Both the position numbers and the translations under genes were made by a program. Shown one piece after another: positions 2,879 through 59,591 of a DNA stretch of 64,000 bases (position 1 is its first letter; the number at the start of each line of letters is the position of its first letter). The DNA comes from an uncultured bacterium (lineage in GTDB: Bacteria; Patescibacteriota; Patescibacteriia; UBA9570; XYC2-FULL-38-9). The DNA lies in assembly GCA_937996685.1 (NCBI GenBank), contig CALKUP010000006.1, positions 1 to 64,000 of the forward strand, written 5' to 3'. The notes below the pieces were generated by a model. That model did not search any database and was not told the DNA's origin. It saw nothing but the letters and a program-made list of their open reading frames with translations.

Positions 2879-2881
2879 GTG

Positions 2882-4123: not shown

Positions 4124-4129
4124 AAAGAT

Positions 4130-5266: not shown

Positions 5267-5655
5267 CGAATCGGCATTTTTTCGTTATTCTGCCTGGCAT
5301 GCATCACCATCAATTGCCACATGAACGAAACGTCCCTTTAAACGGGCTTTGCGTTGTCTGTGAGCAAGAGATTCGACACGATGATTCAAGTATCGTAATC
5401 GAGCGTGATGATTTGCGTTGTTCGTATGGAGTGTGTGAAACATGCTCTAGTGCCCATTTAACCATTCAAATTGGCAAAGGGGAGTCAACCACCGCTGTGA
5501 GCATGCTCACGGACTGGAAACGTCGTGAAGTTGAATTTTTCTGGAAACAGGATGCGATTTCAGCAAACGATGTGATCGCTCTCCACGAAGCGCTTTCGGA
5601 TGCACATTTTTCTGCACAGCTTGTTCATGCAGACAACAATCATATTACTAAATAG
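5263..5655 (+). CDS. Hypothetical protein with CxxC...CxxC zinc-ribbon-like motif
   Basis: 130-aa ORF overlapping the SEDS stop by 4 nt. Contains CVVCEQ...CETCSS. Confidence 0.4.
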   Translation: MTNRHFFVILPGMHHHQLPHERNVPLNGLCVVCEQEIRHDDSSIVIERDDLRCSYGVCETCSSAHLTIQIGKGESTTAVSMLTDWKRREVEFFWKQDAISANDVIALHEALSDAHFSAQLVHADNNHITK

Positions 5656-5672
5656 TCAATTATTACTTACGT

Positions 5673-6350
5673 ATGTCAAACACTCTTACTCTCGCAGCTA
5701 GCAAGCGCGAACAAACTGGCCGCCAAGCAACTGCTGCGTTATTTGTCGAAAACCGCCTTCCAGCTGTTTTATACGGCCACGGAATCGAAACAGTGTCACT
5801 TTCTTTGAACGCTGTTGAATTTGATAAAGTACTTGCAGCCGCAGGTGAAAGTACACTCGTTGAACTATCTGTTGATGGTGGCGCTATGGTAAACGTGTTG
5901 ATTCACGATGTGACACGTAACGCTGTTTCTCATGCTGTAACACACGTTGACTTGTATCAAGTGCGTATGGATGAAAAAATTACAACAGAAGTTGAGTTTG
6001 TATTCGAAGGTGTTGCTCCAGCGGAAAAACAACTTGGCGGCGTCTTAGTTCGTAACATGACTCATGTACAAGTTGAATGTCTGCCAAAAGATTTACCACA
6101 TCATTTGGTTGTTGATATCACAACACTTGCGACATTCGACGACACAATTCGCGTTGAAGACCTTGTTGCTCCAGCCGGCGTTGTAATCCACCATGCAGCA
6201 GATGACGTGATCGCATTGGTTGAAGCACCTCGTACTGAGGCTGAACTTGAAGCATTGAATGAAGCAGTTGTAAACACAGTTGACCAAGTTGAGGTTGCTG
6301 GCGCGAAAAAGACTGACGAAGCAGCAGAAGGAGCGGAAGATAAAAAATAA
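5673..6350 (+). CDS. rplY: 50S ribosomal protein L25 / general stress protein Ctc
   Basis: bL25 beta-barrel N-domain (TGRQATAALFVENRLPAVLYGHG) plus a Ctc-type C-terminal extension with an acidic tail. Confidence 0.85.
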   Translation: MSNTLTLAASKREQTGRQATAALFVENRLPAVLYGHGIETVSLSLNAVEFDKVLAAAGESTLVELSVDGGAMVNVLIHDVTRNAVSHAVTHVDLYQVRMDEKITTEVEFVFEGVAPAEKQLGGVLVRNMTHVQVECLPKDLPHHLVVDITTLATFDDTIRVEDLVAPAGVVIHHAADDVIALVEAPRTEAELEALNEAVVNTVDQVEVAGAKKTDEAAEGAEDKK

Positions 6351-6377: not shown

Positions 6378-7520
6378 ATGGAAAACAACGAAACAAAGAC
6401 AAAAACAACAGGAGAGAAAGCGGGTTTTCTCTCTCGACTCAAAAACGATAAAAAAACACAACTCTGGGTTTCTGGGGTTGTTGTTTTTTTATTACTCGCT
6501 GTTGTTGGCGGTTTATTATACTCTTCAAAAAATAGCTCAAAGTCACAAGACGGCGACGACAAAGAGGTCGTAGTTGAAGATGTTTCAGCGACACTACAAC
6601 GTAAACTTGATGGTGTTGAAGTAGATAACGGCAAAGATAATATCTACCCAGTTGGTGTAATGATCGAAAACCTTGTCAGTGTTCGTCCACAATCTGGACT
6701 TTCAAAAGCCGGTGTTGTCTATGAAGCGCTCGCAGAAGGTGGTATCACACGCTTTTTGGCAGTGTTTGCGAGTGACGCTTCAATGGATAAAGTTGGTCCC
6801 GTTCGTTCAGCGCGTGATTATTATGTTCGTCTTGCTGGTGAGTATAACGCTGTGTATGCGCATGCAGGTGGAAGCCCAGAAGCGCTCGCGTTGTTGCAAT
6901 CTGACAAGCACGTGTTAGACGGCAATGCCTTAACAGGTGGCCAACAGCAGTTTTTTAAACGTGATACAGCGATTGCTGCACCACACAACTTATTTACAAA
7001 TTCCTTTTTGTTAAACGAGTTGCGAAAAAATAAAAACGTCCTCGATACTGAAGGTGATTTCACTGGCTGGAAATTCGCAACAAAAACAATGCAAGCAACA
7101 GAAGGATCTGCTGACGCGACAAGTATTCATATTGATTTTTCTTCTCGTGATTACACCGCGGACTATTCATATAACGCAGAAGATGGTGTGTATGAACGAT
7201 CAAACGGCGGCGTTGCGCATACAGACGCTCTGACAAAAAAACAAATCACCGTCAAAAATATTGTCGTGCAAAAAACAGAAGTTGCTGCAAGTGGGGATGA
7301 CAAAGGACGTGTTGATGTGACAACAACAGGTGACGGGAACGCGTTGATTTTCATCAATGGAAAAGTGACAGAAGGCACCTGGAAATTTGATGCAACAGAA
7401 AACCGCACACGATTTTATGACGCAGCAGACAATGAAGTCGTATTTGAACCAGGAAACACATGGGTAGAAGTTGTTCCAAGTGATCGTACTGTTGAGTACA
7501 CAGCCCAAGAGGCACAATAA
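6378..7520 (+). CDS. DUF3048-family membrane-anchored protein (YerB-like)
   Basis: N-terminal TM, low-complexity linker, then motifs PVGVMIEN...RPQSGLSKAGVVYE...EGGITRFLAVF...GPVRSARDYY that I recall as DUF3048/YerB-like. Confidence 0.6.
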   Translation: MENNETKTKTTGEKAGFLSRLKNDKKTQLWVSGVVVFLLLAVVGGLLYSSKNSSKSQDGDDKEVVVEDVSATLQRKLDGVEVDNGKDNIYPVGVMIENLVSVRPQSGLSKAGVVYEALAEGGITRFLAVFASDASMDKVGPVRSARDYYVRLAGEYNAVYAHAGGSPEALALLQSDKHVLDGNALTGGQQQFFKRDTAIAAPHNLFTNSFLLNELRKNKNVLDTEGDFTGWKFATKTMQATEGSADATSIHIDFSSRDYTADYSYNAEDGVYERSNGGVAHTDALTKKQITVKNIVVQKTEVAASGDDKGRVDVTTTGDGNALIFINGKVTEGTWKFDATENRTRFYDAADNEVVFEPGNTWVEVVPSDRTVEYTAQEAQ

Positions 7521-7538: not shown

Positions 7539-8726
7539 ATGTCAACGAAAAAACCACATATCGAGGGTGAAGAGGGTAGCGAGCACACGCATCGCACAAA
7601 AAAAGAGCTTCACCCATATTTGCGTTCATTAAAAGAGCATCGTTTTGCAACTGTCGGTTTAGTCGTTGCAGTTATCGCGCTTTGTGCCGTTGGTGGATTT
7701 GCATACTATCAATCACAACAACCAGGGCCATCTGTGGTGAGCCAAATTGTTGATACGGTTACAGAAGAGCCCGTTGTTGTTCCGGAAGAGTCGAAAGAAA
7801 TCCCGCGACATATTGATGGCGTGATTGTGCCACGTGAAGAGGCGAATCCACATCTTGTCTGTGTCATGATTGAAAACGCAGCCTTTGGTGGAGTGCGCCC
7901 ACAATCCGGACTCTCAAAAGCATCTGTGGTCTACGAGGTTATTGTTGAAGGTGGAATCACACGGTTAATGGCCGTATTCGCAAATGACGATGACGACAAG
8001 GCCGATATTATTGGTCCGGTTCGTTCAGCGCGTGATACCTATCTAGAATTTGCTGCTGAATATAATTGTCCGTATGCCCATGCTGGCGGCAGTTACACTG
8101 CGATGCTCGCGCTTCGTGAACGTAATTTCCGTGATGTTGACGGCTTAAAAGAGCGTGGTTTTTATCGTCGTGCTGGAAAAGTTTCTCCACATAATTTGTT
8201 TATTAGCTGGGATGATTTGCAAACACTTGCTGGCGGCCACAATTGGCGCGATGAAGCTCCGACATACACACCATGGGCATTTGCAGATCCACTTGATACA
8301 GCGGCTCGCCCAGGCAATGACGCGACAAACAAAGCCCGTACAGTGAAAGTTGGTTTCGGTGGTTCTTATGATGTTGAATTCCGATACAACGCCGATGAAA
8401 ATGTGTATGAACGATACGATGGCGGTGTTGCGCATAAAGATGAACTAACAAACGACGTGATCAAAACAAAAAATGTTGTGTTGTACCATGTTGCAGACGG
8501 CGATTCTATTGAAGGCAAAGGACGCATCAATTGGCCTGTAACACGCCCAGAAGGTGGCGATGTTGATATTATCCACGACGGCATGGTGACAAAAGGCAAA
8601 TGGAAAAAAGGTGCTGCATCTGAACGAGTTTCATTTGTTGACGCTGACGGGAAAGATATCCCGCTTACTCGCGGAAACACGTGGGTTGAAGTCGTGCCGC
8701 CACATATTAGTAGTAGCATTGAATAA
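7539..8726 (+). CDS. DUF3048-family membrane-anchored protein, tandem paralog
   Basis: Same architecture and motifs as the upstream gene (VCVMIEN...RPQSGLSKASVVYE...EGGITRLMAVF...GPVRSARDTY). Divergent tandem duplication. Confidence 0.6.
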   Translation: MSTKKPHIEGEEGSEHTHRTKKELHPYLRSLKEHRFATVGLVVAVIALCAVGGFAYYQSQQPGPSVVSQIVDTVTEEPVVVPEESKEIPRHIDGVIVPREEANPHLVCVMIENAAFGGVRPQSGLSKASVVYEVIVEGGITRLMAVFANDDDDKADIIGPVRSARDTYLEFAAEYNCPYAHAGGSYTAMLALRERNFRDVDGLKERGFYRRAGKVSPHNLFISWDDLQTLAGGHNWRDEAPTYTPWAFADPLDTAARPGNDATNKARTVKVGFGGSYDVEFRYNADENVYERYDGGVAHKDELTNDVIKTKNVVLYHVADGDSIEGKGRINWPVTRPEGGDVDIIHDGMVTKGKWKKGAASERVSFVDADGKDIPLTRGNTWVEVVPPHISSSIE

Positions 8727-13293: not shown

Positions 13294-14010
13294 TTAAGAC
13301 ATTGTCAGATCGGCAACAAGCATGAGGCCAGCGTCCGTATTTGTACTGCAAAGCAAACGAGAATTAAACTGTGTTCCATGAAAAGCCGAAAGAAAGGCGT
13401 GAATTGTCGTCTCTGATCTTCCGTCAATTGCCACTGGTTTTGTTGCTTGTAAATCTTTTAACGTGTTCTGTGTTACAGCTTTTTGTAATCCCACAAGAAA
13501 ATCAGAAGATTGATCGTCTGGAGTAATAGCTGCAACAAATGCAATTCGTGTATTTGCGCTTAATAAAGTCGACCCAAGCGCGTCTCCAAGTTTTACAATC
13601 TGAGAAAGAGGGAAGACCTCGGAGCTCAACGGAAGGCGCACATGAACGTATTTTGCATTCTGCAGATGACTTGAGATCCTTGTTAATGAAATAGCAACAT
13701 CAGAATCGATGTGCTCTGAAGCATCTAAGTACAACCAGTCACTGTGTCCACGATTTGCGCACTCAGATTTCATGTGCATGATGAGCTCGATGTCATTTTT
13801 CATGATACAGTTACCATCGGGTGTTTTTAAGCATTCAGCAATACTCACTGTTGCAACTGTGTCTGTTTCAGGGGCAGTATCCAATACAACGATGGTGTCA
13901 GGTCGCATAAAATAGAGCTCTCCTTCAATTTCAGAAAAAGCCGCTCGCAAATCAGGCGCTGTCGGCGCTGTTGTGAGTTGAGGAATAATACTGCCGTGAA
14001 CTATAGACAT
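13294..14010 (-). CDS. Hypothetical protein
   Basis: 238-aa ORF. The N-terminus MSIVHGSIIPQ resembles the HGS start of some class-III extradiol dioxygenase/LigB-like proteins, but I cannot confirm this. Confidence 0.4.
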   Translation of the reverse strand: MSIVHGSIIPQLTTAPTAPDLRAAFSEIEGELYFMRPDTIVVLDTAPETDTVATVSIAECLKTPDGNCIMKNDIELIMHMKSECANRGHSDWLYLDASEHIDSDVAISLTRISSHLQNAKYVHVRLPLSSEVFPLSQIVKLGDALGSTLLSANTRIAFVAAITPDDQSSDFLVGLQKAVTQNTLKDLQATKPVAIDGRSETTIHAFLSAFHGTQFNSRLLCSTNTDAGLMLVADLTMS

Positions 14011-14014
14011 ACAG

Positions 14015-15520
14015 TTATTTTTTCTTTGTAGCAGTACTTGTTTTTGTTTGTGCTTTTTTCACAGTAGCACTCGCTTTCTTCGTTGTTGTTTTCTTTTTGA
14101 GAGAAATTTTTGCGCCAGCTGGATGTAGGTTTAAGATTTTTTGGTCAACAACAATAACATTGGAAATTTTATATCCATAGGCATCGAATGCCGCACGAGA
14201 ATCGAATGCAAGGCGCTTACCTTTAGAAATCACGTAAATTGATTTTCCATTTTTTGTTCGAACAAGCGTTCCATCTCGAAGCAAAAGCGGTTGTTTGACT
14301 TTGAATGATGCGTATTTTTCAGCAGAAACTGTTTCAATACTCTTGAAACCTGTACCAAACTGATTATTTAAGATGTCTTTTGAGAAAATTGCATACCCTT
14401 TATTTTCTGGGGTAATCCATGCGAGCTCGCCAGTTGCTTGATTGCGGACAATTGCACCGTTTGGATAAGTTTGTTTTGAAGAGATGTTTTTTCCAGTCTT
14501 GTAACCAACGATTTCACGAGTCGCGACTGAAATAACTTCTGATGCCTGGAAGCCAGAGTTTTTGAATGATTCTCGGTCTTCAAATTCACGCAATGTGTCG
14601 CCAACAACAAGATATAACTTGGAGTCAGGGGTCTGAAGGATTGAGTAGTTCGGGAATGAAATTGGAGTACCGGTTTGATATTTATTAATGACAGTTGCTG
14701 GAACTTTGATAATTGATTGGTTTCCGTAATTCGCAAGCAAAGCACTTTTTGAATTAAATCTTCGCTTTTTACCACCTTGAATCAAATAGACTGTGTTTTC
14801 ATGTTGCAGCAATGTTCCAGATGGATAGGTAATACTCGGATTCCATTCTTGCCACAATTTTGAAAAGAGGGAATTCGCACCATACCGAGAACTTCCGCCG
14901 CCGTACGCACCAACCCATGGATTATATGTATAGAGGGCAGCTGTTGCATTATTTGTCGGAGTAACAGCAACGCCATCAGCAGTGACCTTTGTTTTTCCTG
15001 GGCCCCAACCGGAACGAGTCGTCCCGCGATTTTCTAAATCAGTCAGGTATCGATTACGAAATTGCCACCCAGCTGAATCAAATTGATTTGCAATGCCTTT
15101 ATATGTCGCTGCTTGTTTTGCGGTACAACTATCACAATACCCAAAACCAAGAATCCATTTGTCCATTGATGCAGTCACTCGAGAAGAGGTGACAGCACCT
15201 GACTCCTTTTGCGCTAATACTAAAAACAACATTGGGTTCAAGTTGTATCGTTTTGAGACGTTTGAAATAATATCAGAAACATAACGGTCTTTACCGTCAA
15301 CGTCTTTTGTTTTGTAATCAGCCAGCGCAGACCCTTTGCTGTCGAGAAACTCTCGAACGCCTTTTGCGCTCAAGTAATTCTTGTTTGTCATGTCAGTATC
15401 TGAAATGATGTAGTTTTTATCGAAAGAAAATGCGAGTGTTTGGTGCGGAGCAAACAAGGTGAATGCTGTCGCTGCAGCAAAAAGGGCCGCGTTCAATTTT
15501 TTCATTTTTGTGTACTTCAT
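14015..15520 (-). CDS. Secreted protein: signal peptide, ~230-aa N-domain, four ~55-aa internal repeats, Lys/Thr-rich C-terminal tail
   Basis: Signal peptide MKYTKMKKLNAALFAAATAFTLFAPHQTLA. Repeats of the type VYLIQGGKKRRF...F...GY, LYLVVGDTLREF, WITPENKGYAIF, IYVISKGKRLAF. Tail KKKTTTKKASATVKKAQTKTSTATKKK. Confidence 0.6.
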   Translation of the reverse strand: MKYTKMKKLNAALFAAATAFTLFAPHQTLAFSFDKNYIISDTDMTNKNYLSAKGVREFLDSKGSALADYKTKDVDGKDRYVSDIISNVSKRYNLNPMLFLVLAQKESGAVTSSRVTASMDKWILGFGYCDSCTAKQAATYKGIANQFDSAGWQFRNRYLTDLENRGTTRSGWGPGKTKVTADGVAVTPTNNATAALYTYNPWVGAYGGGSSRYGANSLFSKLWQEWNPSITYPSGTLLQHENTVYLIQGGKKRRFNSKSALLANYGNQSIIKVPATVINKYQTGTPISFPNYSILQTPDSKLYLVVGDTLREFEDRESFKNSGFQASEVISVATREIVGYKTGKNISSKQTYPNGAIVRNQATGELAWITPENKGYAIFSKDILNNQFGTGFKSIETVSAEKYASFKVKQPLLLRDGTLVRTKNGKSIYVISKGKRLAFDSRAAFDAYGYKISNVIVVDQKILNLHPAGAKISLKKKTTTKKASATVKKAQTKTSTATKKK

Positions 15521-18929: not shown

Positions 18930-20168
18930 TTATTTTATGTAGACTCTATCCGCGATGCGCACATCTACTGTCTTTGTTGTTCCTGACTGCACCTTCCCTT
19001 GTTGTGTCACAATCCGTAGTTGCTCTACCTGTTGTTCCATGTCTCGCATCGTATCAAACTTCACCTCTATGACACCCTTGCCATCTTTTTGGATCAACAC
19101 GTGAAGATCTGACGCTACTTGCACAAAGTCACACGCAACAACTTTATCAACCGTCGCCCATTCAAGTTTTTGCGGAACGGCAGTATTTGTCGCCACTGGC
19201 GCTTTTGTCTCCTGCTCTTCTTTTTTTACTTCTTCTAACGCCGCGAGACTTTCTTCAATGTCTAACTCGCCTTTTTTAAACTGCTCTTGAATAACACGTT
19301 TTTTTTCTTTAAATGCATCCGTGGTTGAATCAGTGATCGCATCGGCAAAAATTTGCTGCGCGACATATTCCTGTTCTTTGCAGGTCATGACTGGAAAAAC
19401 GAATGATTCAACATTCCACCCATTTTCCACTAACAGATCTTTAACCGCCATTAAATCGCTGAGATAGTCAGGATGAATAATTTGCCAACCGATCCCCAGT
19501 TGGGCTCTATTTTTATCGAAAATTTGAGGTAATTTTGTATCAACCTCATTTTTATTTGTTGTTTCTGCGGTAACAACGCCCTTATGATCAATTGTATAAT
19601 AATGATCAACTCCTCCAGCATCGCGTGTTGCCCAAATAACACTTGGAACACGCTCTGTAATTTGCACTTGTAACGTGTTTGGGTACTTTTTTGTGACCTG
19701 AATGTCTTCTGCAGCGAAATTATTTGCAAAACCAGATTTTAGTTGTCGGGTCACCGACGATTCCGAAATGGTCCAGTATCTATTTTTTGGGATTCCCAAG
19801 AATGAATCCTGCAGCAACGCGTTTGTTTTATCAATCACCTCTTGTTTTGGGATAAATTGAGTATCATTCACTGTAATATTTCGAAGTACAAATTGATCGC
19901 TTTGAAATACAATAATATACGCCCCTACTCCAAGAATTCCAAAAATACCAGCAAGAGCGAAGCCATCTTTTCGCATAAACGCATCAAACGCAATTCGAGC
20001 GTCTGTTTTTGTTTTTGGTGTCTGTGTTTTACGGAATTGATTTTTTTGTGCTGGTGTAACAAATTTTGTACTACGAGAAACAGCCCGCAAAGAGGCTTGT
20101 TGTTCCTTGAGTGACTGCATGCGAGCTGATTGTCGTCGCTTTTTGTATGCCTGTAATAATACCTTCAT
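18930..20168 (-). CDS. Cell division protein FtsQ/DivIB-like (POTRA + beta domain), extended C-terminal acidic/coiled region
   Basis: Basic cytoplasmic N-terminus, one TM (LAGIFGILGVGAYIIVF), then a POTRA-like FVLRNITVNDTQFIPKQEV segment. Confidence 0.55.
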   Translation of the reverse strand: MKVLLQAYKKRRQSARMQSLKEQQASLRAVSRSTKFVTPAQKNQFRKTQTPKTKTDARIAFDAFMRKDGFALAGIFGILGVGAYIIVFQSDQFVLRNITVNDTQFIPKQEVIDKTNALLQDSFLGIPKNRYWTISESSVTRQLKSGFANNFAAEDIQVTKKYPNTLQVQITERVPSVIWATRDAGGVDHYYTIDHKGVVTAETTNKNEVDTKLPQIFDKNRAQLGIGWQIIHPDYLSDLMAVKDLLVENGWNVESFVFPVMTCKEQEYVAQQIFADAITDSTTDAFKEKKRVIQEQFKKGELDIEESLAALEEVKKEEQETKAPVATNTAVPQKLEWATVDKVVACDFVQVASDLHVLIQKDGKGVIEVKFDTMRDMEQQVEQLRIVTQQGKVQSGTTKTVDVRIADRVYIK

Positions 20169-20221
20169 AGTACGTCCTTATAGTATAGAGATTTTTTAAC
20201 AAAATTGCTATACTCACCTAT

Positions 20222-21835
20222 ATGGATTTTTTCACACCCTCTCAATCAACGCTTTTTTTGTTAGAGATTATTTTATGGACAACAGGCATTACAGCCGGCA
20301 TCGGTAAGGTGTTATTTTGGACAGGAATCATTCGAATACACCACTACCGAATGAGTCGTTTTATTGATTTTCTCGGAACGAAACAAGGGATTGCACTACT
20401 TGCCCACCCTGTTGGAATTTCTGATGCAATACTCGCGCTCTGCCTGGTATTGCTTTTGCAATTTTACGACACAACACATCTTTTGTGGAATCAATTTTTA
20501 TTCGCTTCTATTCTCCTCTATCTATCACACATTGCGTGGTACGTGCATGCGGTAAAGCCACAACATCGTTTCAGATTTCAGTCATTTGTTATCGGGGCTA
20601 CTGCTATCGTACTTTCCTTGCTGGGCGCAACGCTTCTCTATACATACTTCCCATTACCGTCCGTGATTGATGTTGCTGTGTTTCAAGTAGCGATCCCGAT
20701 ATTTGGAGTCGCGACAACAGCCCTTATTTCTTGGATTACCGGTGTCTCAGAGCGACTGGTGAGCGCAAAAGCACGGGCGCGCATTGAGAGCATGCAACCG
20801 ATTATTATTGCAATGAGTGGGACACACGGACGAAGCACAACTCGCACAGCTCTTGAGCACATACTTGCTTCTTCATACAATGTATTGTCGATACCTGCTC
20901 ATGCAGACGAATCACTTGCTGAAACGATATTCAACCAATTGTCTGAAGAACACCAAATCGTACTCTATGAAATTGACCCAACATCACCAGAAGATGTTGT
21001 GATGAGCCTCGCAGTTGCGCCACCTATTGTACTCGTGATTCCAGCAATTGAAGAGTCGTATATCCACGTACCGTTTATTGACCAAACACAGTTTTCAAAA
21101 AGCTACGTACAGATGATTGAGGCTTTGCCAAATAACGGGCTTGTCGTACTGAATGCTGATGATGCAAAAACAGCAATCCTTGCGGAACATAGTGCCGCAC
21201 GTGTAAAGTATTTTTCACTTCAGTCAGTTGCGCACGCCTATCTCCGAAGTGTTTCGCTGCAATCGGAATTCATTGATTGTGAAATTTCTGTTGGGTCACA
21301 AAAAAGAACCCTACATATTCCTGCAATTGGCACTGAACCAATCGCCGCGCTGCTTGCTAGTAGCATTGTCGCTGAACATCTTGGCATCGCCATAGAAGCG
21401 GTTGCGCATGCGGTCGAAGGATCAAGCGCACCACACGGCACGACGACTGTGTCATACGGCGTCAATCACGCATTCATTATGAACGCAACAGCTCTTTCTA
21501 GTTATTCAGAAATTCGATCAGCATTCGATTATGCAAGCATTCACACAACAAAAGAAAAGGTGCTTCTTATCGACACACGCCAGCAAGCACTTTGGCGCCT
21601 AACACTCCCCTTTTGTGTTGATATTATTAACCAATACATGTTTATTGGATCCGAAGGAAAAACTGTTCGTGATATCTGTATAAAAGAATATAACATTCAA
21701 CCAGAACGCATGCACCTTCTTTCAAATAGCCGTAAGGCAGCTGACGCATTACGAACATCCATGACCCCACAGCACCTCGTTATTGCACTTGGTCCCCTGC
21801 CTTCAAGAGTTCAAGAAGTGCTGCAAACACCGTAA
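20222..21835 (+). CDS. Mur-ligase-family protein with ~180-aa polytopic membrane N-terminal domain; P-loop GTHGRSTT (Lys->Arg)
   Basis: About five TM helices, then a Mur ligase central domain (AMSGTHGRSTTRTAL, NADD motif in VLNADDA) and a Mur-ligase C-domain. Confidence 0.6.
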   Translation: MDFFTPSQSTLFLLEIILWTTGITAGIGKVLFWTGIIRIHHYRMSRFIDFLGTKQGIALLAHPVGISDAILALCLVLLLQFYDTTHLLWNQFLFASILLYLSHIAWYVHAVKPQHRFRFQSFVIGATAIVLSLLGATLLYTYFPLPSVIDVAVFQVAIPIFGVATTALISWITGVSERLVSAKARARIESMQPIIIAMSGTHGRSTTRTALEHILASSYNVLSIPAHADESLAETIFNQLSEEHQIVLYEIDPTSPEDVVMSLAVAPPIVLVIPAIEESYIHVPFIDQTQFSKSYVQMIEALPNNGLVVLNADDAKTAILAEHSAARVKYFSLQSVAHAYLRSVSLQSEFIDCEISVGSQKRTLHIPAIGTEPIAALLASSIVAEHLGIAIEAVAHAVEGSSAPHGTTTVSYGVNHAFIMNATALSSYSEIRSAFDYASIHTTKEKVLLIDTRQQALWRLTLPFCVDIINQYMFIGSEGKTVRDICIKEYNIQPERMHLLSNSRKAADALRTSMTPQHLVIALGPLPSRVQEVLQTP

Positions 21836-21846
21836 GTAGACGTCTG

Positions 21847-23115
21847 TTATGCGCTAATAACCGTCATGCCAAATGTATACGGATGCAACGCGCTTGGGAT
21901 GCGGATAGAACCATCTGCTTGCTGACCATTTTCAAGAATTGCGATTGGCAAACGCGATAACGCAACAGCTGTGCCATTCAGTGTGTGCGTTAACTCTTTT
22001 GTTCCGTTCGCTGTTTTATAAAACATATTCAAACGACGGGACTGGTAATCTGTACAATTTGATGCAGATGTCACTTCACCAAAATCATTTTTAAATGGCA
22101 TCCAAGCCTCGATGTCATACTTTCGATACGCACTCGCACCGAGATCCGCATCACAAATATCAACGAGACGATACGGCAATTCCAGTGACTGCATAATGTC
22201 TTCTTCGAGCGCACGAATGGCTTCATGCTCTGCTGCAGAATCTTCTGGTTTACAGACAACAAATAATTCTACTTTTGCGAATTGATGCACGCGATACAGC
22301 CCTCGAGACTCCTTCCCGTACGCTCCATCTTCTGTTCGAAAACAATGTGACAATGCAACAATACGCTGCGGTGTATCAAGCTCTCCCGCTTCAAACACAC
22401 GTTTTTTAAAGTACCCCGCAACAGGAATTTCCGCAGTTGCCACCAGCCCAAGATCAGTGCCTTCAAGGCTGTAAATTTGCGTTTCATTACCACGCGGGTT
22501 ATAACCAGTGCCTTGCAAGATTTCATGTTTTGCAACATCCGGTGTGATCATTGGAGTAAAGCCGGCGGCAATTGCTTTTTGCATTGCGAATTGAATCAAG
22601 GCTGTTTCTAAAATAGCCAATCCACCTTTTTTATAATAAAACCCTCGTCCAGCAACTTCAGCCCCTCGTTCAAAGTCGAGAATATCTAAATCAGCCCCAA
22701 GAACAACATGATCTTTTGGTTCAAAATCAAATGTTGTCGGTTCTAAAAACCGTGACAATTCAACACTATCTGCCTCTTCCATTCCATGTGGAACATCCGG
22801 GTGCGTCATATTTGGCACCTGCAAATAGAGTTCCTGGAACGCACTATGCGCCGCTTCAGCTGCTGACTCTAACTGCGCAAGCTCTTCTTTTAATTGCTTC
22901 CCTTCTTCAACCAGTGACTGATCAGCCCCTTTTGACGCTTTTAATTGCTCTGCAATGCTGTTGCGACGACGACGCAAATCATCGACCGCTCCAATTGCTG
23001 CTCGGCGCTGATCATCAAGTTCGAGCAATTCAGTGATACGAATGTCCATGCGACGACGTTCGCAGTTTTTCTGCACTTCTTTAGGGTGTTGGCGAATATA
23101 TTCAATATCAATCAT
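21847..23115 (-). CDS. serS: Seryl-tRNA synthetase
   Basis: N-terminal tRNA-binding coiled coil and a class II catalytic core (GLYRVHQFAKVELF). Confidence 0.93.
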   Translation of the reverse strand: MIDIEYIRQHPKEVQKNCERRRMDIRITELLELDDQRRAAIGAVDDLRRRRNSIAEQLKASKGADQSLVEEGKQLKEELAQLESAAEAAHSAFQELYLQVPNMTHPDVPHGMEEADSVELSRFLEPTTFDFEPKDHVVLGADLDILDFERGAEVAGRGFYYKKGGLAILETALIQFAMQKAIAAGFTPMITPDVAKHEILQGTGYNPRGNETQIYSLEGTDLGLVATAEIPVAGYFKKRVFEAGELDTPQRIVALSHCFRTEDGAYGKESRGLYRVHQFAKVELFVVCKPEDSAAEHEAIRALEEDIMQSLELPYRLVDICDADLGASAYRKYDIEAWMPFKNDFGEVTSASNCTDYQSRRLNMFYKTANGTKELTHTLNGTAVALSRLPIAILENGQQADGSIRIPSALHPYTFGMTVISA

Positions 23116-23133: not shown

Positions 23134-25233
23134 TTAAAGCTGTTGCATCGCACGAATTGTTAACTCCAATACATCATCAACAGATGTTTCCGGAAGCCAT
23201 TCTGGAATTTTTTGAATCCACTCACGATCAACTCCGCGGGCAAATGATTTGTCTTTCAATTTTTTCTTGACGCTTTTCAGCTCAAGTTGCGCAATGTCTT
23301 TATCTGGACGAACTGCAACACAGGCTGCAATAAGGCCTGTGACCTGCTCACACGAACGCAGTGCTTTTGCAAGCAGTGTGTGAGGGTCCCCACTGTTATT
23401 ATGCGGATTATGCAATTCAACAGCTCGGACAATCACAGGGTCAATACCCTTCGCCGTTAACCACTGTGCACCAAGAATGGCATGCTCTGTGTGAATAGAG
23501 TCAGGGTGGCAACTTTCATAATCAATATCATGTAACACACCTGCGACATACCACGCTTCTGGATTCTTCGCGCCAAACCGCTCTGCAAGCGCTGCCATTT
23601 GCTCTCCAACGGCACGATTATGATAACGAAGCGCGTCACTTTGAATTTTTTCTTCCATCCACGCATCAGCTTCTGCGCGTGTAATTCCTGGGTCGCACTC
23701 TTCAAGACTTGCATCACCTGCAACTTCTTCAGCAGAAATCGTGACTTCTTCTGTTGTCGCTGGCTCTGCGGTGCCATGTTTTGGCCGATACAGTGGAAAC
23801 AATACAGCATCACGAATGGACATGTCCATTAAAAATGAAAACAACCGTTCAGAAAAACCGAAGCCGAATGTCGGTGGCATTCCGTGCTCTAGTGCTTCAA
23901 CAAATTCCTCATCGTTCATCTGCGCCTCTCCATCACCTTGCGCCCGTAATTCCGCTTGATGCTCGAAACGCTCACGTTGATCAATTGGATCATTTAACTC
24001 TGAATAGCCATTTCCAACTTCACTGCCGGCAATAATCACCTGGAAACGCTCAACAACTTCTGGGTTATCTGAGTGTCGTTTTGCAAGCGGTGAAACAGAA
24101 ACAGGATGATTAATCAGCAATGCTGGGCCGGCAATTTTTTTACGACACTGTTTCCACAGAGAGTCGATTAAGCGTCCTTTTCCTGATCCAGCTTCAACCA
24201 GGATATCATGCCGCGCACAAACAGCTCGCAATTCTTCCTCTGTCGCTGTTAATACATTCACGCCAAATTGTTGTTCAACGGCCGTTGCGTAATCAATAAT
24301 TTCCCATTCTTTTTCAAAGTCAATATCAAAACCACGAATATGACATTGCAATGTACCGAGGGTCTCTTTAATAATATGTCGATACATACGTTTCACAAAG
24401 TCCATGCCTTTTGTGTAATCTGCGTATGCCCAATAACACTCCATTTGAGAGTAGTCTTGCAGATGTTCCGGACTCATGCCTTCATTACGAAATTGTCGTC
24501 CGATTTCAAATGTTTTTTCAAAACCTGCAACCATTAATCGCTTTTGCCATAACTCACCCATGGAGATACGCAGATACACATCAATATCAAGAGCATTGTG
24601 ATGTGTCATAAATGGTGTCGCGTCTGCTCCGCCAGTGGTATTTTCTAATACCGGAGTTTCTACTTCCAAAAATCCATCATTCAATAAAAATTGACGCGTC
24701 GCATTCCAAAATCGCGCTTTCGCAATAAAGACATCACGCAACTCTGGTCGCAGTAACAAATCAATATATCGCTTGCGAAGCTTTGTTTCATCGTCTTGAA
24801 TTCCATGCCATTTGTCTGGCAGTGGTTGCAGTGCTTTTGTTAATATCCGTAATTCAGACACAAGCAATGACTGCTCCCCTTTTTTCGTAATAAATGCAAC
24901 GCCTGTACATTCAATAATATCACCTGCGCCAATCGTATGTGTCGCCCAATCAAATAGCACCTCACCTGTCTGTTCGCTACTTACAACAATTTGGACATCA
25001 CCACTTGCGTCACGTAATCGTAAAAAAATCAACTTTCCGTGTTCTCGTTTGAGCAAAACGCGGCCAGCCAAGATACGAGCTTCTTGTGAGTCATGGAGCT
25101 CCTTAAAGCGATTAAAAAAATCACCGACAATAGTATTGCGATTGCTATCCGCTGGGTATGGATTTACACCATTTGCGCGCAAATTATTTGCGACTTCTAA
25201 TCGTACGTCAAATTCTGTTTTGTGTTCACTCAT
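23134..25233 (-). CDS. lysS: Lysyl-tRNA synthetase (class II) fused in-frame to a C-terminal YqeK-like HD-domain phosphohydrolase
   Basis: LysRS N-terminal OB fold and class II core (~500 aa), then ~190 aa with HD-domain motifs: HNRAVGE...LAERFGA...VLHDID...HTEHAILGAQWL...ELHNPHNNSG. Start set at the ATG MSEHKTEF (25233); a GTG at 25266 lies inside the greA terminator hairpin. Confidence 0.88.
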   Translation of the reverse strand: MSEHKTEFDVRLEVANNLRANGVNPYPADSNRNTIVGDFFNRFKELHDSQEARILAGRVLLKREHGKLIFLRLRDASGDVQIVVSSEQTGEVLFDWATHTIGAGDIIECTGVAFITKKGEQSLLVSELRILTKALQPLPDKWHGIQDDETKLRKRYIDLLLRPELRDVFIAKARFWNATRQFLLNDGFLEVETPVLENTTGGADATPFMTHHNALDIDVYLRISMGELWQKRLMVAGFEKTFEIGRQFRNEGMSPEHLQDYSQMECYWAYADYTKGMDFVKRMYRHIIKETLGTLQCHIRGFDIDFEKEWEIIDYATAVEQQFGVNVLTATEEELRAVCARHDILVEAGSGKGRLIDSLWKQCRKKIAGPALLINHPVSVSPLAKRHSDNPEVVERFQVIIAGSEVGNGYSELNDPIDQRERFEHQAELRAQGDGEAQMNDEEFVEALEHGMPPTFGFGFSERLFSFLMDMSIRDAVLFPLYRPKHGTAEPATTEEVTISAEEVAGDASLEECDPGITRAEADAWMEEKIQSDALRYHNRAVGEQMAALAERFGAKNPEAWYVAGVLHDIDYESCHPDSIHTEHAILGAQWLTAKGIDPVIVRAVELHNPHNNSGDPHTLLAKALRSCEQVTGLIAACVAVRPDKDIAQLELKSVKKKLKDKSFARGVDREWIQKIPEWLPETSVDDVLELTIRAMQQL

Positions 25234-25241
25234 ACGTGTGT

Positions 25242-25274
25242 AAAAAAAATATACTGCGCTCTTCACGCAGTATA
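25242..25274 (-). terminator. Rho-independent terminator after greA, abutting lysS start
   Basis: Minus strand: ATATACTGCG-TGAAGAG-CGCAGTATAT then TTTTTTTT. It lies 8 nt before the lysS ATG. Confidence 0.55.
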
Positions 25275-29158: not shown

Positions 29159-30205
29159 TTAATCAAATTCAGATGGTGAGGCAACAAAAAAGTCTTTTGC
29201 TGCATCAATATCTTCAAGAATAATACCTGTACCACGAACAACTGCTGTTAGCGGATCCTCAACGAGATGAACTGGGATTTGAATGTCATTTGCAATCCGT
29301 TTATCAAGGCCGCGCAATAAAGCAGTCCCTCCTGATAATAAAATACCGCGGCTATAAATATCAGCAACTAGCTCAGGCGGTGTGCTCTCTAAGACCATTT
29401 TAATGTTGTCGATAATTAAATGGATTGAACGAGAAATCGCCTCACGGATATGGTTACTGTTAATAGTAATTTCTTTTGGCAGCCCTGAAATAACATCTCG
29501 ACCACGGACTGTCATTTCTAGTAAGTCATCATTTTTATACGCTGAGCCAATTTGAATCTTTGCCTCTTCTGCTGTTGCCTCTCCTAATAAAATATTAAAA
29601 TGGTCACGAACATAGTTCACGATATTTTTATTCAACTCTCCTCCAGCTAGTCGCATTGCACGCCACGACACAATACCGCCGAGAGAAATAACCGCAATCG
29701 ATGTTGTGCCTGAACCACAGTCAACGATTAATTGACCAGCCGAATCTTCAATTGGCAAGCGACTGCCGATTGCTGCAGCCATCGGCTCTGGGATAAGAAA
29801 CACCTGACGCGCTCCTGCGTGCAACACAGCATCTTCAACCGCCTTCCGTTCTACTTCTGTAATATCAAGCGGGATCGCAATCACAACGCGTGGTTTCGCA
29901 ACAATTGATAATGTCTCACGATGTACCGTATCAATGAAATACTTCAACATTTTTTCAGCGATTTCAAAATCTGAGATCACACCATCAACCAACGGATTTG
30001 TCGCGATAATGTGTGGCGGTGTTTTTCCAATCATCTGTTTTGCGGAATGACCAACAGCAATAATCGCGTCTGTTTTCATGTTTACAGCAACAACAGATGG
30101 CTCATTAATCACAATACCCTTCTCTTTTAAAAATAACAGCGTATTGGATGTGCCAATATCAATGCCGATATCACGGGTAAATTGACCAAAAAATCGTTCA
30201 AACAT
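29159..30205 (-). CDS. mreB: Rod shape-determining protein MreB
   Basis: DIGIDIGTSNTLLF phosphate-1 motif and an actin/Hsp70 fold. I chose the ATG at MFERFFGQF; the longer ORF starts at 30259. Confidence 0.9.
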   Translation of the reverse strand: MFERFFGQFTRDIGIDIGTSNTLLFLKEKGIVINEPSVVAVNMKTDAIIAVGHSAKQMIGKTPPHIIATNPLVDGVISDFEIAEKMLKYFIDTVHRETLSIVAKPRVVIAIPLDITEVERKAVEDAVLHAGARQVFLIPEPMAAAIGSRLPIEDSAGQLIVDCGSGTTSIAVISLGGIVSWRAMRLAGGELNKNIVNYVRDHFNILLGEATAEEAKIQIGSAYKNDDLLEMTVRGRDVISGLPKEITINSNHIREAISRSIHLIIDNIKMVLESTPPELVADIYSRGILLSGGTALLRGLDKRIANDIQIPVHLVEDPLTAVVRGTGIILEDIDAAKDFFVASPSEFD

Positions 30206-30271
30206 AGTCAACGTACTATAGCCCATTATAGGCCCCTGGTCAAACAGGTACCTGAACACATTTTGTGTTCA

Positions 30272-35027: not shown

Positions 35028-36035
35028 CTACCGATTTTCCATGATCGATCGTTTGTATGAATCCAAATTTTCTAATGCGATACCTGTCCCTCGAACGACA
35101 TTCAATAAAGATTCTTCAGCAACATAGGTCGGGACATCAGTTGCCCGAGCGAGTAACTCATCGAGATTTCGCAACTGACCAGAGCCACCGGAAAGCACCA
35201 TTCCTTTTTCAATCACATCCGCAGCAAGTTCTGGAGGTGTTTCTTGTAATACTGATTTCACTGCATCAATTAAATCATGCAACTCTGTTTGAATTGCCTC
35301 TGTAATGTCATCAGACGTGACTGTAATCGTTCTTGGAAGACCCGTAATCATATCGCGACCACGCACTTCCATTGTAAGGGGGTGCGCAAGCGGCAACGCA
35401 GAACCAATCGTAATTTTCAATTCTTCTGCTGTTCGCTCACCAATTGCAAGATTGTGTTTACGACGAACGTATTCCATAATCGCTGCATCAAATTTTGTTC
35501 CGCCAATACGCACAGAAGTGTTCGCAACAATTCCGCCGAGTGAGATAACTGCGATTTCAGAAGTTCCTCCGCCGATTTCAATAATCATATGACCACTTGG
35601 AGAGCCAATTGGAATACCAGCCCCAATCGCAGATGCAATCGGCTGCTTAATGATATACGCCGCCTTCGCTCCAGCCTGGAGCGTTGCATCAATCACCGCA
35701 CGACGTTCTGTTGATGTAATCCCTGCAGGCACCGCAATCATGACCTCTGGCGCGAATAAACGCACACCACCTAATGCCTTATTAATAAAATAACGCAACA
35801 TACTTTCTGTTGTTCGATAATCTGCGATTACGCCGTCCTTTAATGGTTTTTGTGCGACAATCGTGTCAGGTGTTCGACCGAGCATTTGCTTGGCCTCGTT
35901 TCCAACAGCGAGCACTTTACGATCTTTCAATGAAATAGCAACAACAGAAGGCTCATTCACAACAATGCCCTTTTTTGGAACAAATACGAGTGTATTGGCT
36001 GTTCCTAAATCAATTGCAATCTTCTTTGAAAACAC
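35028..36035 (-). CDS. MreB/Mbl-like actin homolog (second paralog) embedded in glycan cluster
   Basis: IAIDLGTANTLVFVPKKGIVVNEPSVVAI; full actin-fold colinearity with the mreB at 29159-30205. Confidence 0.85.
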   Translation of the reverse strand: MFSKKIAIDLGTANTLVFVPKKGIVVNEPSVVAISLKDRKVLAVGNEAKQMLGRTPDTIVAQKPLKDGVIADYRTTESMLRYFINKALGGVRLFAPEVMIAVPAGITSTERRAVIDATLQAGAKAAYIIKQPIASAIGAGIPIGSPSGHMIIEIGGGTSEIAVISLGGIVANTSVRIGGTKFDAAIMEYVRRKHNLAIGERTAEELKITIGSALPLAHPLTMEVRGRDMITGLPRTITVTSDDITEAIQTELHDLIDAVKSVLQETPPELAADVIEKGMVLSGGSGQLRNLDELLARATDVPTYVAEESLLNVVRGTGIALENLDSYKRSIMENR

Positions 36036-59445: not shown

Positions 59446-59591
59446 ATTGAGCAGCTATCCAAAGAACCAGTACAGCGCACACATAAGCACAATTCGATAC
59501 AATATACGTTTTTTCGACTTGTCTGTGCTGGATGAACATACAATATTTTAAGCGATTAGTCAATATTTTTTGTTGTGATATACTACAGGAT

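What the first reader, a model, noticed from the sequence alone, without database searches (positions are those of the whole stretch)
20222..21835. Mur-ligase-like enzyme with a polytopic membrane N-terminus and an Arg-substituted P-loop, divergent from ftsQ
The central and C-terminal domains are Mur-ligase-type (GTxGRSTT, NADD). Canonical MurC-F and CapB proteins lack a ~180-aa, ~5-TM N-terminal domain. The invariant P-loop Lys is replaced by Arg (GTHGRSTT). It is transcribed divergently from an FtsQ-like gene. It may be a membrane-tethered amino-acid ligase for a surface polymer (poly-gamma-glutamate- or cyanophycin-like logic), or a non-catalytic divisome component derived from a Mur ligase.
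Basis: partly seen in the sequence, partly recalled or inferred. Interest (0 to 1): 0.6.

Follow-up and report, generated by a model that had tools for sequence, protein, structure and literature searches.

The report
Membrane-anchored MurF relic, catalytically dead
This gene is a decayed copy of a previously undescribed membrane-anchored form of the cell-wall enzyme MurF found in Patescibacteria: it has lost its catalytic residues and its three operon partners, yet it is still kept by selection, so it probably now has a non-enzymatic role.

Summary
ORF 20222-21835 (+) encodes 537 aa: five N-terminal transmembrane helices, then a Mur-ligase module with Arg in place of the P-loop Lys. It is transcribed divergently from an FtsQ-like gene.

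The architecture is not unique. An exhaustive HMMER search found hundreds of ~520-570-aa proteins with the same layout. Intact members are MurF-type (256-266 bits on TIGR01143, cutoff 288.6). They keep every Mur-ligase catalytic motif, and all have Lys in the P-loop. In one full dcw cluster (L118) the gene lies between murE and mraY, where murF normally sits. MurC, MurD and MurE lie nearby, and no canonical MurF was seen in any locus. They lie in a conserved cassette: alpha/beta-hydrolase, X, DegT-type aminotransferase, FemAB.

The window gene belongs to a five-member subclade that deleted the three partners and lost most catalytic motifs. It keeps only 24 of 70 family-conserved positions. Its four syntenic orthologs keep Lys, so Arg is a lineage-specific decay step, not a new enzyme signature.

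The ORF is intact in all five lineages and under purifying selection (dN/dS about 0.1-0.3).

Best reading: a pseudoenzyme kept as a membrane component of the wall-synthesis machinery. Whether the organism has a replacement MurF could not be checked.

The parts
20222..21835 (+). X: 537-aa degenerate membrane-anchored MurF-type protein (complete ORF including stop)
20222..20794 (+). N-terminal membrane domain (residues 1-191). TM helices lie at 8-39, 63-79, 87-111, 119-142 and 147-~176, and the last continues as a cytoplasmic helix to residue 191. No Pfam family and no PDB fold match.
20330..20359 (+). Cytoplasmic loop-1 motif. The family consensus is WQLKEYRxDR; here it is the degenerate 'IRIHHYRMSR', keeping Y42, R43 and R46.
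20558..20578 (+). Cytoplasmic loop-3 motif. The family consensus is PxxTxKA; here it is 'PQHRFRF', keeping only P113.
20810..20845 (+). Degenerate P-loop 'AMSGTHGRSTTR' (family: GITGSYGKTSTK). R204 (nt 20831-20833, CGA) replaces the invariant Lys, and K208 is also replaced by Arg.
20816..21370 (+). Mur ligase middle domain (Pfam PF08245, residues 199-383). It retains E250 and the LNADD motif. It has lost Q279/H280 (now SY), K295 (Y), E297 (Q) and the G..N..N adenine motif.
21422..21832 (+). Degenerate C-terminal domain (residues 401-537). The Mur_ligase_C fold is predicted but not detectable by sequence. DDxYNANP is now MNATALSS, ELG..H is now PFC..Y, and EGR is now LGP.
20169..20221 (.). 53-nt divergent intergenic region. 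Relatives carry the alpha/beta-hydrolase gene here. A promoter-like site with an extended -10 lies at 20186-20214, but the number of such sites in the region is no more than chance.
18930..20168 (-). FtsQ-like gene (POTRA_1), divergently transcribed. It holds the same position in relatives that carry the intact cassette.
21847..23115 (-). serS, convergent with X and 11 nt downstream of it. Relatives carry DegT and FemAB genes between X and serS.

Best explanation
X is a catalytically inactive descendant (a pseudoenzyme) of a Patescibacterial membrane-anchored MurF.

In the intact family, a 5-TM domain with conserved cytoplasmic loops (WQLKEYRxDR, PxxTxKA) replaces MurF's soluble N-terminal domain. 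It holds a fully equipped MurF-type ATP-dependent ligase at the inner face of the membrane. In at least one full dcw cluster the gene sits where murF normally sits. It is always flanked by an alpha/beta-hydrolase, a DegT-type aminotransferase and a FemAB-type transferase.

In the ancestor of the window's subclade, the three partner genes were deleted and the ligase lost its C-terminal-domain motifs and the carbamyl-Lys position. The window lineage then also lost the P-loop Lys (K204R), the Mg-binding His and further residues.

The protein is nevertheless kept full-length under purifying selection, and the membrane domain is its best-conserved part. It therefore most likely persists as a non-enzymatic membrane component of the wall-precursor, elongasome or divisome machinery, acting as a scaffold or adaptor. 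It may still bind a partner or a UDP-MurNAc-peptide-like ligand through the retained LNADD/E250 region.

Shown: family membership, loss of motifs, loss of partners, and selection. Inferred: that intact X is the organism's MurF, that the window copy is inactive, and the scaffold role.
For: Family and architecture:
- Exhaustive HMMER gave 2778 hits, 385 of them at E<1e-10. The top 150 are nearly all 510-570 aa and align from residue ~10-30 to ~450.

Intact members are MurF-type:
- TIGR01143 scores of 256-266 bits over model positions 58-405 of 418.
- The family consensus keeps GSYGKT, VEMGA, QH, AKxEL, NxD, DDxYNANP, ELG..H and EGR.

The murF slot:
- L118 reads mraW-ftsL-ftsI-murE-pgeF-murC-oxidoreductase-murA-abh-X-DegT-FemAB-dgkA-mraY-<murD-...-ftsW.
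- All ten extra ligases classified (five further loci) plus L085's two are MurE, MurC or MurD, never MurF; those of L086 and L135 were not classified.

Cassette linkage:
- abh 45/47, DegT 37/38, FemAB 32/33 in non-redundant loci.

Synteny:
- L087, L088 and L089 are colinear with the window but carry abh-X-DegT-FemAB between ftsQ-like and serS.
- The window, L081, L082, L170 and L171 carry X alone.
- tblastn finds no partner genes in the window.

Decay:
- The window keeps 24 of 70 family-conserved columns, P0004 keeps 41, and all others keep at least 51.
- Motif states across the clade are shown.
- The murF HMM score falls from ~260 (intact) to 120 (P0004) to 66.6 (window).

Selection:
- Codon-position identity is pos2 0.61 > pos1 0.47 > pos3 0.36.
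- Window vs L081: dN 0.70 against dS >=2.5.
- L081 vs L170: dN 0.31 with dS saturated.
- The coding frame has 0 internal stops; the other five frames have 18-31.
- The ORF is intact in five lineages.

Fold:
- AF2 pLDDT 89; the best PDB matches are MurF.
Against: - Inactivity is inferred from sequence only. Four of five clade members keep GK[ST] and E250, so some nucleotide binding or an altered activity cannot be excluded.
- The AF2 fold is driven by an alignment of intact homologs, so it is not independent proof that the C-domain still folds.
- I could not see the rest of the genome, so a replacement MurF is only predicted. The window encodes PBP2, RodA/FtsW and MreBCD, which imply pentapeptide precursors. 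If no other MurF exists, X must still work.
- No direct evidence identifies any binding partner.
- That intact X is the sole MurF rests on ~20-kb neighbourhoods, not whole genomes.
Confidence: 0.62

Rival explanations
1. X is still an active ligase with a remodelled active site. Arg204 would substitute for Lys, and the enzyme would carry out the MurF step or a related ligation alone, without the cassette partners.
For: - Clear purifying selection.
- E250, the S/T after the P-loop, and LNADD are retained.
- Four orthologs keep GK[ST].
- The organism keeps PBP2, RodA and MreBCD, which need pentapeptide precursors, and no other mur ligase lies in the 64-kb window.
Against: - The window copy has lost the P-loop Lys, the Mg-binding His (H280Y), the carbamyl-Lys position (K295Y), E297, the N..N adenine motif, DDxYNANP, ELG..H and EGR.
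- Three orthologs have a ~30-residue deletion in the C-terminal domain that removes ELG..H.
- The MurF HMM score is 66.6 against a cutoff of 288.6.
- Bouhss et al. 1997 defined these residues as invariant in Mur ligases and mutated them in E. coli MurC; I recall a severe loss of activity (my recollection, not checked here).
Confidence: 0.15
2. The intact family is not the housekeeping MurF. It would be an accessory MurF paralog that works with the hydrolase, aminotransferase and FemAB enzymes in a dispensable wall-modification pathway, possibly on a lipid-linked substrate. The window clade simply lost that pathway, and X is what remains of it.
For: - Very tight four-gene linkage.
- The three partners were lost together with X's catalytic motifs in one clade.
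- X lacks the N-terminal domain that contributes to UDP-substrate binding in canonical MurF. MurT, which acts on lipid II, is a precedent for this (own knowledge).
Against: - In L118 X sits between murE and mraY, with MurC/D/E present and no canonical MurF. None of the extra ligases classified near X (six of the eight such loci) is a MurF.
- The ligase module matches the MurF model over nearly its full length and falls just below the cutoff only because the N-domain is missing.
- Whole genomes were not examined.
Confidence: 0.18
3. X is a decaying pseudogene that has not yet been interrupted.
For: - It is the fastest-evolving gene in the block (33.5% identity against 70-87% for the housekeeping neighbours).
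- It has lost catalytic residues and operon partners.
Against: - The ORF is intact in five lineages whose synonymous sites are saturated.
- dN/dS is about 0.1-0.3.
- Codon-position identity is pos2 > pos1 > pos3 in all three domains.
- The other five frames carry 18-31 stops.
Confidence: 0.03
4. One reading: a membrane-tethered amino-acid ligase that builds a surface polymer, by poly-gamma-glutamate (CapB) or cyanophycin-like logic.
For: Membrane anchoring combined with a Mur-ligase fold. Cyanophycin synthetase appears weakly in the lists (E 1.5e-4 over ~40 residues; Foldseek hits).
Against: - The closest relatives by sequence and structure are MurF.
- Family context is the dcw / peptidoglycan precursor cluster.
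- No CapB/PgsB match at E<=1.
- No CapC/CapA-like partners were seen in the neighbourhoods annotated.
- The catalytic residues are absent in this copy.
Confidence: 0.02

Closest known systems
MurF, UDP-MurNAc-tripeptide--D-alanyl-D-alanine ligase (TIGR01143; PDB 3ZL8, 4CVM, 4QF5, 1GG4)
   Same: - Best HMM and best structural match.
- Same central and C-terminal domain folds.
- Intact family members carry all MurF motifs and, in L118, occupy the murF slot of the dcw cluster.
   Different: - The soluble N-terminal domain (PF01225) is replaced by a 5-TM domain.
- The window copy has lost the P-loop Lys, the Mg-binding His, the carbamyl-Lys position and the adenine and C-domain motifs.
- It scores 66.6 bits against a cutoff of 288.6.
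Unnamed Patescibacterial family of membrane-anchored MurF-type ligases (P0005-P0152; cassette abh-X-DegT-FemAB)
   Same: Same 5-TM plus ligase architecture. Orthologous genomic position (colinear with L087, L088 and L089). Residual loop-1 motif (Y42, R43, R46).
   Different: Cassette partners deleted. Only 24 of 70 conserved positions kept. Arg instead of the otherwise invariant P-loop Lys.
PAP11 / plant MurE-like subunit of the plastid-encoded RNA polymerase (PDB 8r6s chain Q, 9epc chain Q)
   Same: A Mur-ligase fold kept for a structural, non-ligase role. It appears among the Foldseek hits.
   Different: - MurE-derived, eukaryotic and soluble, with an unrelated partner complex.
- The identification of chain Q as PAP11 and its non-enzymatic role are from my own knowledge and were not tested here.
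MurT of the MurT-GatD lipid II amidotransferase
   Same: A Mur-ligase-type protein without a canonical UDP-binding N-domain that acts at the membrane on a lipid-linked precursor.
   Different: MurT has no TM domain, keeps its catalytic residues, has a DUF1727 C-domain, and partners with GatD. Intact X members match the MurT models only weakly (29-33 bits).
Soluble MurF recruited to membrane complexes (Chlamydia MreB-MurF-MraY-MurG, PMC3187750; H. pylori Csd5/Csd7-MurF-CcmA, PMC12468929)
   Same: MurF is positioned at the membrane next to MraY or the cytoskeleton. This gives a rationale for a tethered MurF and for a scaffold role.
   Different: There the tether is a protein-protein contact; here it is a covalently fused membrane domain.
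CapB/PgsB poly-gamma-glutamate synthetase
   Same: Membrane-associated amide ligase of the Mur-ligase superfamily.
   Different: It has a single anchor helix, a different subfamily and CapC/CapA partners. No CapB/PgsB model matched the window protein even at E<=1.

Membership tests
Mur ligase superfamily | Mur_ligase_M (PF08245) domain above the Pfam gathering score | tested here: met
   36.5 bits against 24, residues 199-383
Mur ligase superfamily | P-loop GxxGK[ST] with the invariant Lys | tested here: not met
   GTHGRST, with R204. Lys in all 127 other aligned members.
Mur ligase superfamily | Mg-binding Glu and His, and the carbamylated-Lys position | tested here: not met
   E250 is kept, but H280 is Tyr and K295 is Tyr (a Lys lies two residues upstream at 293).
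Mur ligase superfamily | Mur_ligase_C (PF02875) domain | tested here: inconclusive
   Not detected by Pfam. The predicted fold aligns with the MurF C-domain, but the model depends on intact homologs.
MurF (TIGR01143) | Score at or above the curated cutoff of 288.6 bits | tested here: not met
   66.6 bits. Intact family members score 256-266, and P0004 scores 120.
MurF (TIGR01143) | N-terminal Mur_ligase domain (PF01225) | tested here: not met
   Replaced by a 5-TM domain.
MurF (TIGR01143) | C-domain motifs DDxYNANP, ELG..H and EGR | tested here: not met
   MNATALSS, PFC..Y and LGP.
MurF (TIGR01143) | Catalyses addition of D-Ala-D-Ala to UDP-MurNAc-tripeptide | not testable with these tools
   Requires biochemistry or complementation.
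Patescibacterial membrane-anchored MurF-type family (unnamed) | 5-TM N-domain fused to a MurF-type ligase module, ~520-570 aa | tested here: met
Patescibacterial membrane-anchored MurF-type family (unnamed) | Orthologous genomic position | tested here: met
   Colinear with L087, L088, L089 and L084.
Patescibacterial membrane-anchored MurF-type family (unnamed) | Cytoplasmic loop motif WQLKEYRxDR | tested here: inconclusive
   IRIHHYRMSR keeps Y42, R43 and R46 and loses W, Q, K, E and D.
Patescibacterial membrane-anchored MurF-type family (unnamed) | Cassette abh-X-DegT-FemAB | tested here: not met
   No partners flank X, and none is found by tblastn in the window. They are present in 45/47, 37/38 and 32/33 other loci.
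CapB/PgsB poly-gamma-glutamate synthetase | Sequence match to a CapB/PgsB model | tested here: not met
   No such model in the NCBIfam list at E<=1.
Cyanophycin synthetase | Full-length match including the ATP-grasp domain | tested here: not met
   Only a ~40-residue stretch matches (19.9 bits against 850).
Pseudoenzyme (operational definition) | Catalytic residues lost, but the coding sequence is under purifying selection | tested here: met

The most novel reading that the evidence does not exclude
Many Patescibacteria make the last cytoplasmic peptidoglycan precursor with a MurF whose N-terminal domain has been swapped for a previously undescribed 5-TM domain. This MurF would be hard-wired into a four-gene module with a hydrolase, a DegT-type aminotransferase and a FemAB transferase, which together supply or modify the peptide unit it ligates. 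In one subclade, which includes this window, the module was dismantled, and the MurF shell was kept as a dedicated non-catalytic membrane scaffold of the wall-synthesis or division machinery. That subclade would then obtain its pentapeptide by a replacement MurF or by a different route.
Probability: 0.35. Interest if true: 0.75.

Novelty: new variant of a known kind. Interest (0 to 1): 0.55.

Why it matters
MurF is treated as a soluble, essential cytoplasmic enzyme and is a drug target. A large bacterial radiation in which the MurF-type ligase is an integral membrane protein would change the picture of where the cytoplasmic and membrane steps of wall synthesis meet. That holds all the more because it is embedded in a conserved four-gene module of unknown chemistry. 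It would also give a natural, covalent version of the MurF-MraY-MreB complexes that have so far been inferred from interaction studies.

The degenerate subclade is a natural experiment. It separates the enzymatic function of this protein from a second, structural function that selection still maintains. It also predicts either a replacement MurF or an unusual precursor supply in these reduced-genome organisms.

For annotation, automatic pipelines call these proteins 'UDP-N-acetylmuramyl pentapeptide synthase' (the JGI name for P0004). For this clade that name is probably wrong.

Tried and rejected
- Word-indexed homolog search with the window protein found only itself. With the family profile it returned mostly canonical MurF/MurE. 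The exhaustive HMMER search was needed.
- I spent the single genome-contig scan on serS hoping for taxonomy and synteny. It gave only ~50%-identical hits from mixed phyla and one useful locus (L001, with an intact X next to serS). This was a poor use of the cap, and it cost me the chance to test whole genomes for a second MurF.
- The window's own 128-kb contig is not in the gene-position index, so the rest of the genome could not be read.
- Cluster look-ups gave no source names for family members.
- Foldseek of the TM-only model against the PDB gave nothing significant (best E 1.9), and the domain matches no Pfam family.
- Eight literature searches found no description of a membrane-anchored MurF or of this cassette. 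The library is incomplete, so this is weak evidence of novelty.
- I first thought X had been inverted relative to its flanks, by comparison with L084. L087 showed that the divergent ftsQ-like/operon arrangement is ancestral and that only deletions are needed.
- Frameshift or fusion artefact was rejected: hundreds of homologs share the same continuous architecture.
- Sequencing error at the P-loop was rejected: CGA differs from AAA/AAG at two positions.
- The promoter-like site upstream is no better than chance.
Full report
**The observation**

The ORF is exactly as described: 20222..21835 on the + strand, ATG start, 537 aa, no frameshift. 'AMSGTHGRSTTR' is at residues 197-208 and 'LNADD' at 310-314. 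Arg204 is encoded by CGA, which differs from both Lys codons at two positions, so it is not a single-base error.

Pfam finds a Mur ligase middle domain at residues 199-383 (E=6.4e-9, above the gathering score). It finds no Mur_ligase_C and no N-terminal Mur_ligase domain. The best NCBIfam model is murF (TIGR01143), but at 66.6 bits against a cutoff of 288.6.

Hydropathy and two confident AlphaFold2 models agree on five long helices at 8-39, 63-79, 87-111, 119-142 and 147-191. The full-length model has pLDDT 89 and pTM 0.87, and the N-domain-only model has pLDDT 91.8. The last helix runs straight into the ligase domain.

Lys+Arg counts in the loops (0, 3, 0, 3, 0, 4) fit an N-terminus-out, ligase-in-cytoplasm topology.

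The divergent upstream gene (18930-20168, -) has an FtsQ-type POTRA domain.

**It is not a one-off: a large family shares the architecture**

A word-indexed search found only the protein itself. An exhaustive HMMER scan of 1.84 billion cluster representatives found 2778 hits, 385 of them at E<1e-10. The best 150 are almost all 510-570 aa and align from residue ~10-30 to ~450, which spans the membrane domain and the ligase.

Alignments of 60 and 128 members give a consensus with every Mur-ligase hallmark intact:
- GITGSYGKTSTKE
- VEMGAY
- QHLxLFGS
- AKxEL
- NxD
- GxxNxxNxLAA
- IDDxYNANP
- IELG..H
- EGR

They also show two conserved motifs in the cytoplasmic loops of the membrane domain, YLWQLKEYRxDR and PxxTxKA.

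Intact members score 256-266 bits on the MurF model across positions ~60-405 of 418. Their ligase module is therefore a genuine MurF type that lacks only the N-terminal domain. The membrane domain matches no Pfam family and has no significant structural neighbour in the PDB (best E 1.9).

**What the intact family is**

Annotated contexts and my HMM scan of 80 metagenome loci show a strikingly constant cassette: alpha/beta-hydrolase, X, DegT/DnrJ/EryC1-type aminotransferase, FemAB-family transferase. The loci were retrieved with an alignment of the membrane domain only. Among non-redundant loci with enough flank, the hydrolase is present in 45/47, DegT in 37/38 and FemAB in 32/33.

In L118, which comes from an 847-kb contig, the gene order is mraW-ftsL-ftsI-murE-pgeF-murC-(oxidoreductase)-murA-abh-X-DegT-FemAB-dgkA-mraY-<murD-<(459-aa ORF, no Pfam match)-ftsW.

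X lies between murE and mraY, where murF sits in canonical dcw clusters. Eight loci carry further Mur ligases near X. The twelve I classified, from six of those loci, are all MurE, MurC or MurD above their cutoffs, never MurF. The most economical reading is that X is the MurF of these organisms.

The family extends into lineages that read UGA as Gly. Loci L130, L158 and L163 give a full cassette only with translation table 25, and score better than with table 4. Together with the best serS matches, this points to Patescibacteria (CPR).

I found no paper describing a membrane-anchored MurF or this cassette. The library is incomplete, so this is weak evidence of novelty.

Soluble MurF is known to be recruited to membrane or cytoskeletal complexes. 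Examples are MreB-MurF-MraY-MurG in Chlamydia (PMC3187750) and Csd5/Csd7-MurF in H. pylori (PMC12468929). A covalent tether is therefore a new variant of a known principle.

**The window copy is a degenerate member**

Of 70 alignment columns conserved in at least 80% of the other 127 members, the window protein keeps 24. Its closest relative P0004 keeps 41, and every other member keeps at least 51.

Substitutions in the window copy:

| Position | Change |
|---|---|
| P-loop Lys | K204R |
| K208 | K208R |
| N229 | N229D |
| G252 / A253 / Y254 | D / P / T |
| Q279 / H280 (the Mg-binding His) | S / Y |
| K295 (the carbamyl-Lys position) | Y |
| E297 | Q |
| N..N adenine motif | lost |
| D421 / D422 / Y424 / N427 (DDxYNANP) | N / A / A / S |
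| E463 / L464 / G465 and H472 | P / F / C and Y |
| EGR | LGP |

The loop motif is reduced to IRIHHYRMSR.

The P-loop column is Lys in all 127 other aligned members. It is also Lys in all 51 non-redundant locus-encoded copies I checked.

**The decay is shared by a small clade and coincides with loss of the cassette**

L087, L088 and L089 are colinear with the window. Their order is priA, two unknown genes, gltX, M23 peptidase, <ftsQ-like, then serS, lysS-HD, greA, PBP2 and mreDCB. Between ftsQ-like and serS they carry abh-X-DegT-FemAB.

The window and four orthologs have X alone in that interval:
- P0004 in L081 and L082
- P0189 in L170
- P0190
- P0191 in L171

In the window the flanking gaps are only 53 and 11 nt. 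tblastn finds no hydrolase, DegT or FemAB homolog anywhere in the 64 kb.

All five proteins have lost K295, DDxYNANP, ELG..H and EGR. Three of them removed ELG..H through a ~30-residue deletion. The four orthologs keep GK[ST], and two of them keep the His.

So the cassette and the C-domain chemistry were lost in the common ancestor. Arg204 is a later, lineage-specific step. The divergent arrangement with ftsQ is ancestral to the whole operon, not a special feature of this gene.

**It is not a dead gene**

Against L081, X is the fastest-evolving gene in the block. It shows 33.5% identity, against 70-87% for the housekeeping neighbours, 52% for ftsQ-like and 35% for mreD.

- Codon-position identities are pos2 0.61 > pos1 0.47 > pos3 0.36, and this order holds in all three domains.
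- Window vs L081: dN is 0.70 against dS >=2.5.
- For the closer pair L081/L170, dN is 0.31 with dS saturated. That gives dN/dS of roughly 0.1-0.15, similar to ftsQ-like.
- The coding frame has no internal stop, while the other five frames have 18-31.
- The ORF is intact in five lineages.
- Between L081 and L170 the membrane domain is the best-conserved part of X (66% identity, against 64% for the middle and 48% for the C-terminal domain). Averaged over all five members it ties with the middle domain (53% each) and the C-terminal domain is lowest (42%).

This is the signature of a pseudoenzyme kept for a non-catalytic or much altered function.

**How it most likely works**

*Shown:* membership in the membrane-anchored MurF-type family, loss of catalytic residues and partners, and continued selection.

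*Inferred, intact family:* the membrane domain holds MurF at the membrane next to MraY. Its conserved cytoplasmic loops take over the role of the missing N-terminal domain in substrate or partner binding.

*Inferred, window clade:*
- Ligase chemistry has been abandoned.
- The protein persists as a membrane scaffold or adaptor in the precursor, elongasome or divisome machinery.
- It may still bind a ligand or partner through the retained E250/LNADD region.

A precedent for a Mur-ligase fold kept for a structural role is the plant MurE-like subunit of the plastid RNA polymerase. It appears among the Foldseek hits (8r6s_Q, 9epc_Q). Its identity as PAP11 and its non-enzymatic role are from my own knowledge.

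**Main uncertainty**

The window encodes PBP2, RodA/FtsW, two MreB, MreC and an MreD-like protein. The organism therefore presumably needs pentapeptide precursors and hence a working MurF.

No other mur ligase lies in the window, and I could not read the rest of the genome. I had used the only genome scan on serS.

If the complete genomes of this clade lack another MurF, X must still be active in some unorthodox way. If genomes with intact X routinely carry a canonical MurF as well, X is an accessory paralog and the clade simply lost a dispensable pathway. Both tests are simple with whole assemblies.

**Verdict**

- The gene is a new variant of a known kind: a MurF-type Mur ligase with an undescribed membrane domain, here in a catalytically degenerate form that selection still maintains.
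- The gene on its own is of moderate interest.
- The family-level pattern it led to is the more valuable result. That pattern is a membrane-anchored MurF-type ligase seen in the murF slot of a dcw cluster and locked into a four-gene cassette across Patescibacteria.

Noticed in passing
L084-L169 (e.g. L087 9064-13793; L118 9083-13883): A four-gene cassette (alpha/beta-hydrolase, membrane-anchored MurF-type ligase, DegT-type aminotransferase, FemAB-family transferase) is conserved across dozens of Patescibacterial loci, and in L085/L086 and L118 it lies inside or next to the dcw cluster. Its chemistry is unknown.
   Followed up: partly
L130 9140-13046; L158 696-5459; L163 9131-13859 (also L105, L126, L142, L150): These loci give only fragments with table 11. 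With table 25 (UGA=Gly) the complete abh-X-DegT(-FemAB) cassette appears, and it scores higher than with UGA=Trp. They probably come from Gracilibacteria- or Absconditabacteria-type lineages.
   Followed up: partly
L085 3563-4849; L118 3213-4526; L138 7919-9154; L156 1022-2308; L128 480-1790: The MurE proteins in these clusters are short (412-438 aa). They match the MurE models only from about position 60-100 onward, so they too seem to lack the usual N-terminal domain.
   Followed up: no
L118 6708-7775: Between murC and murA, where L085 has a canonical MurB (FAD_binding_4 + MurB_C), L118 has a 355-aa NAD/FAD Rossmann-type oxidoreductase with no MurB domains. This may be a non-orthologous replacement of MurB.
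   Followed up: no
window 23134-25266 (-): The lysyl-tRNA synthetase carries a C-terminal HD (phosphohydrolase) domain, making a 710-aa protein. The fusion is also seen in relatives (L087, L088, L171).
   Followed up: no
window 61975-63060 (-): A single ORF fuses Sua5/YrdC (TsaC) with TsaE. It lies next to tsaD (60902-61969), so most of the t6A pathway sits in two adjacent genes.
   Followed up: no
window 29159-30259 (-) and 35028-36035 (-): Two full-length MreB paralogs lie about 5 kb apart. The first is in an mreBCD-PBP2 operon. The second is next to glycosyltransferase and DUF4012 genes.
   Followed up: no
window 58990-59470 (-): Bacterial class A RNase P RNA (129 bits) spans 481 nt against a 367-position model, so it has sizeable insertions.
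   Followed up: no
window 6378-7520 and 7539-8726 (+): Two tandem DUF3048 paralogs lie about 1.1 kb downstream of the FtsW/RodA-family gene (4130-5266), separated from it by a ribosomal protein L25 gene.
   Followed up: no
window 13294-14010 and 14015-15520 (-): Two conserved genes (238 aa and 501 aa) have no Pfam match. They lie between priA and gltX and are syntenic in L087 and L170.
   Followed up: no
L001 (CAZKAD010000056.1) 2466-6018: This contig is labelled 'uncultured Gammaproteobacteria bacterium', yet it carries the best serS match to the window (52%) and an intact membrane-anchored MurF-type gene. It is probably a mis-binned or mislabelled Patescibacterial contig.
   Followed up: no
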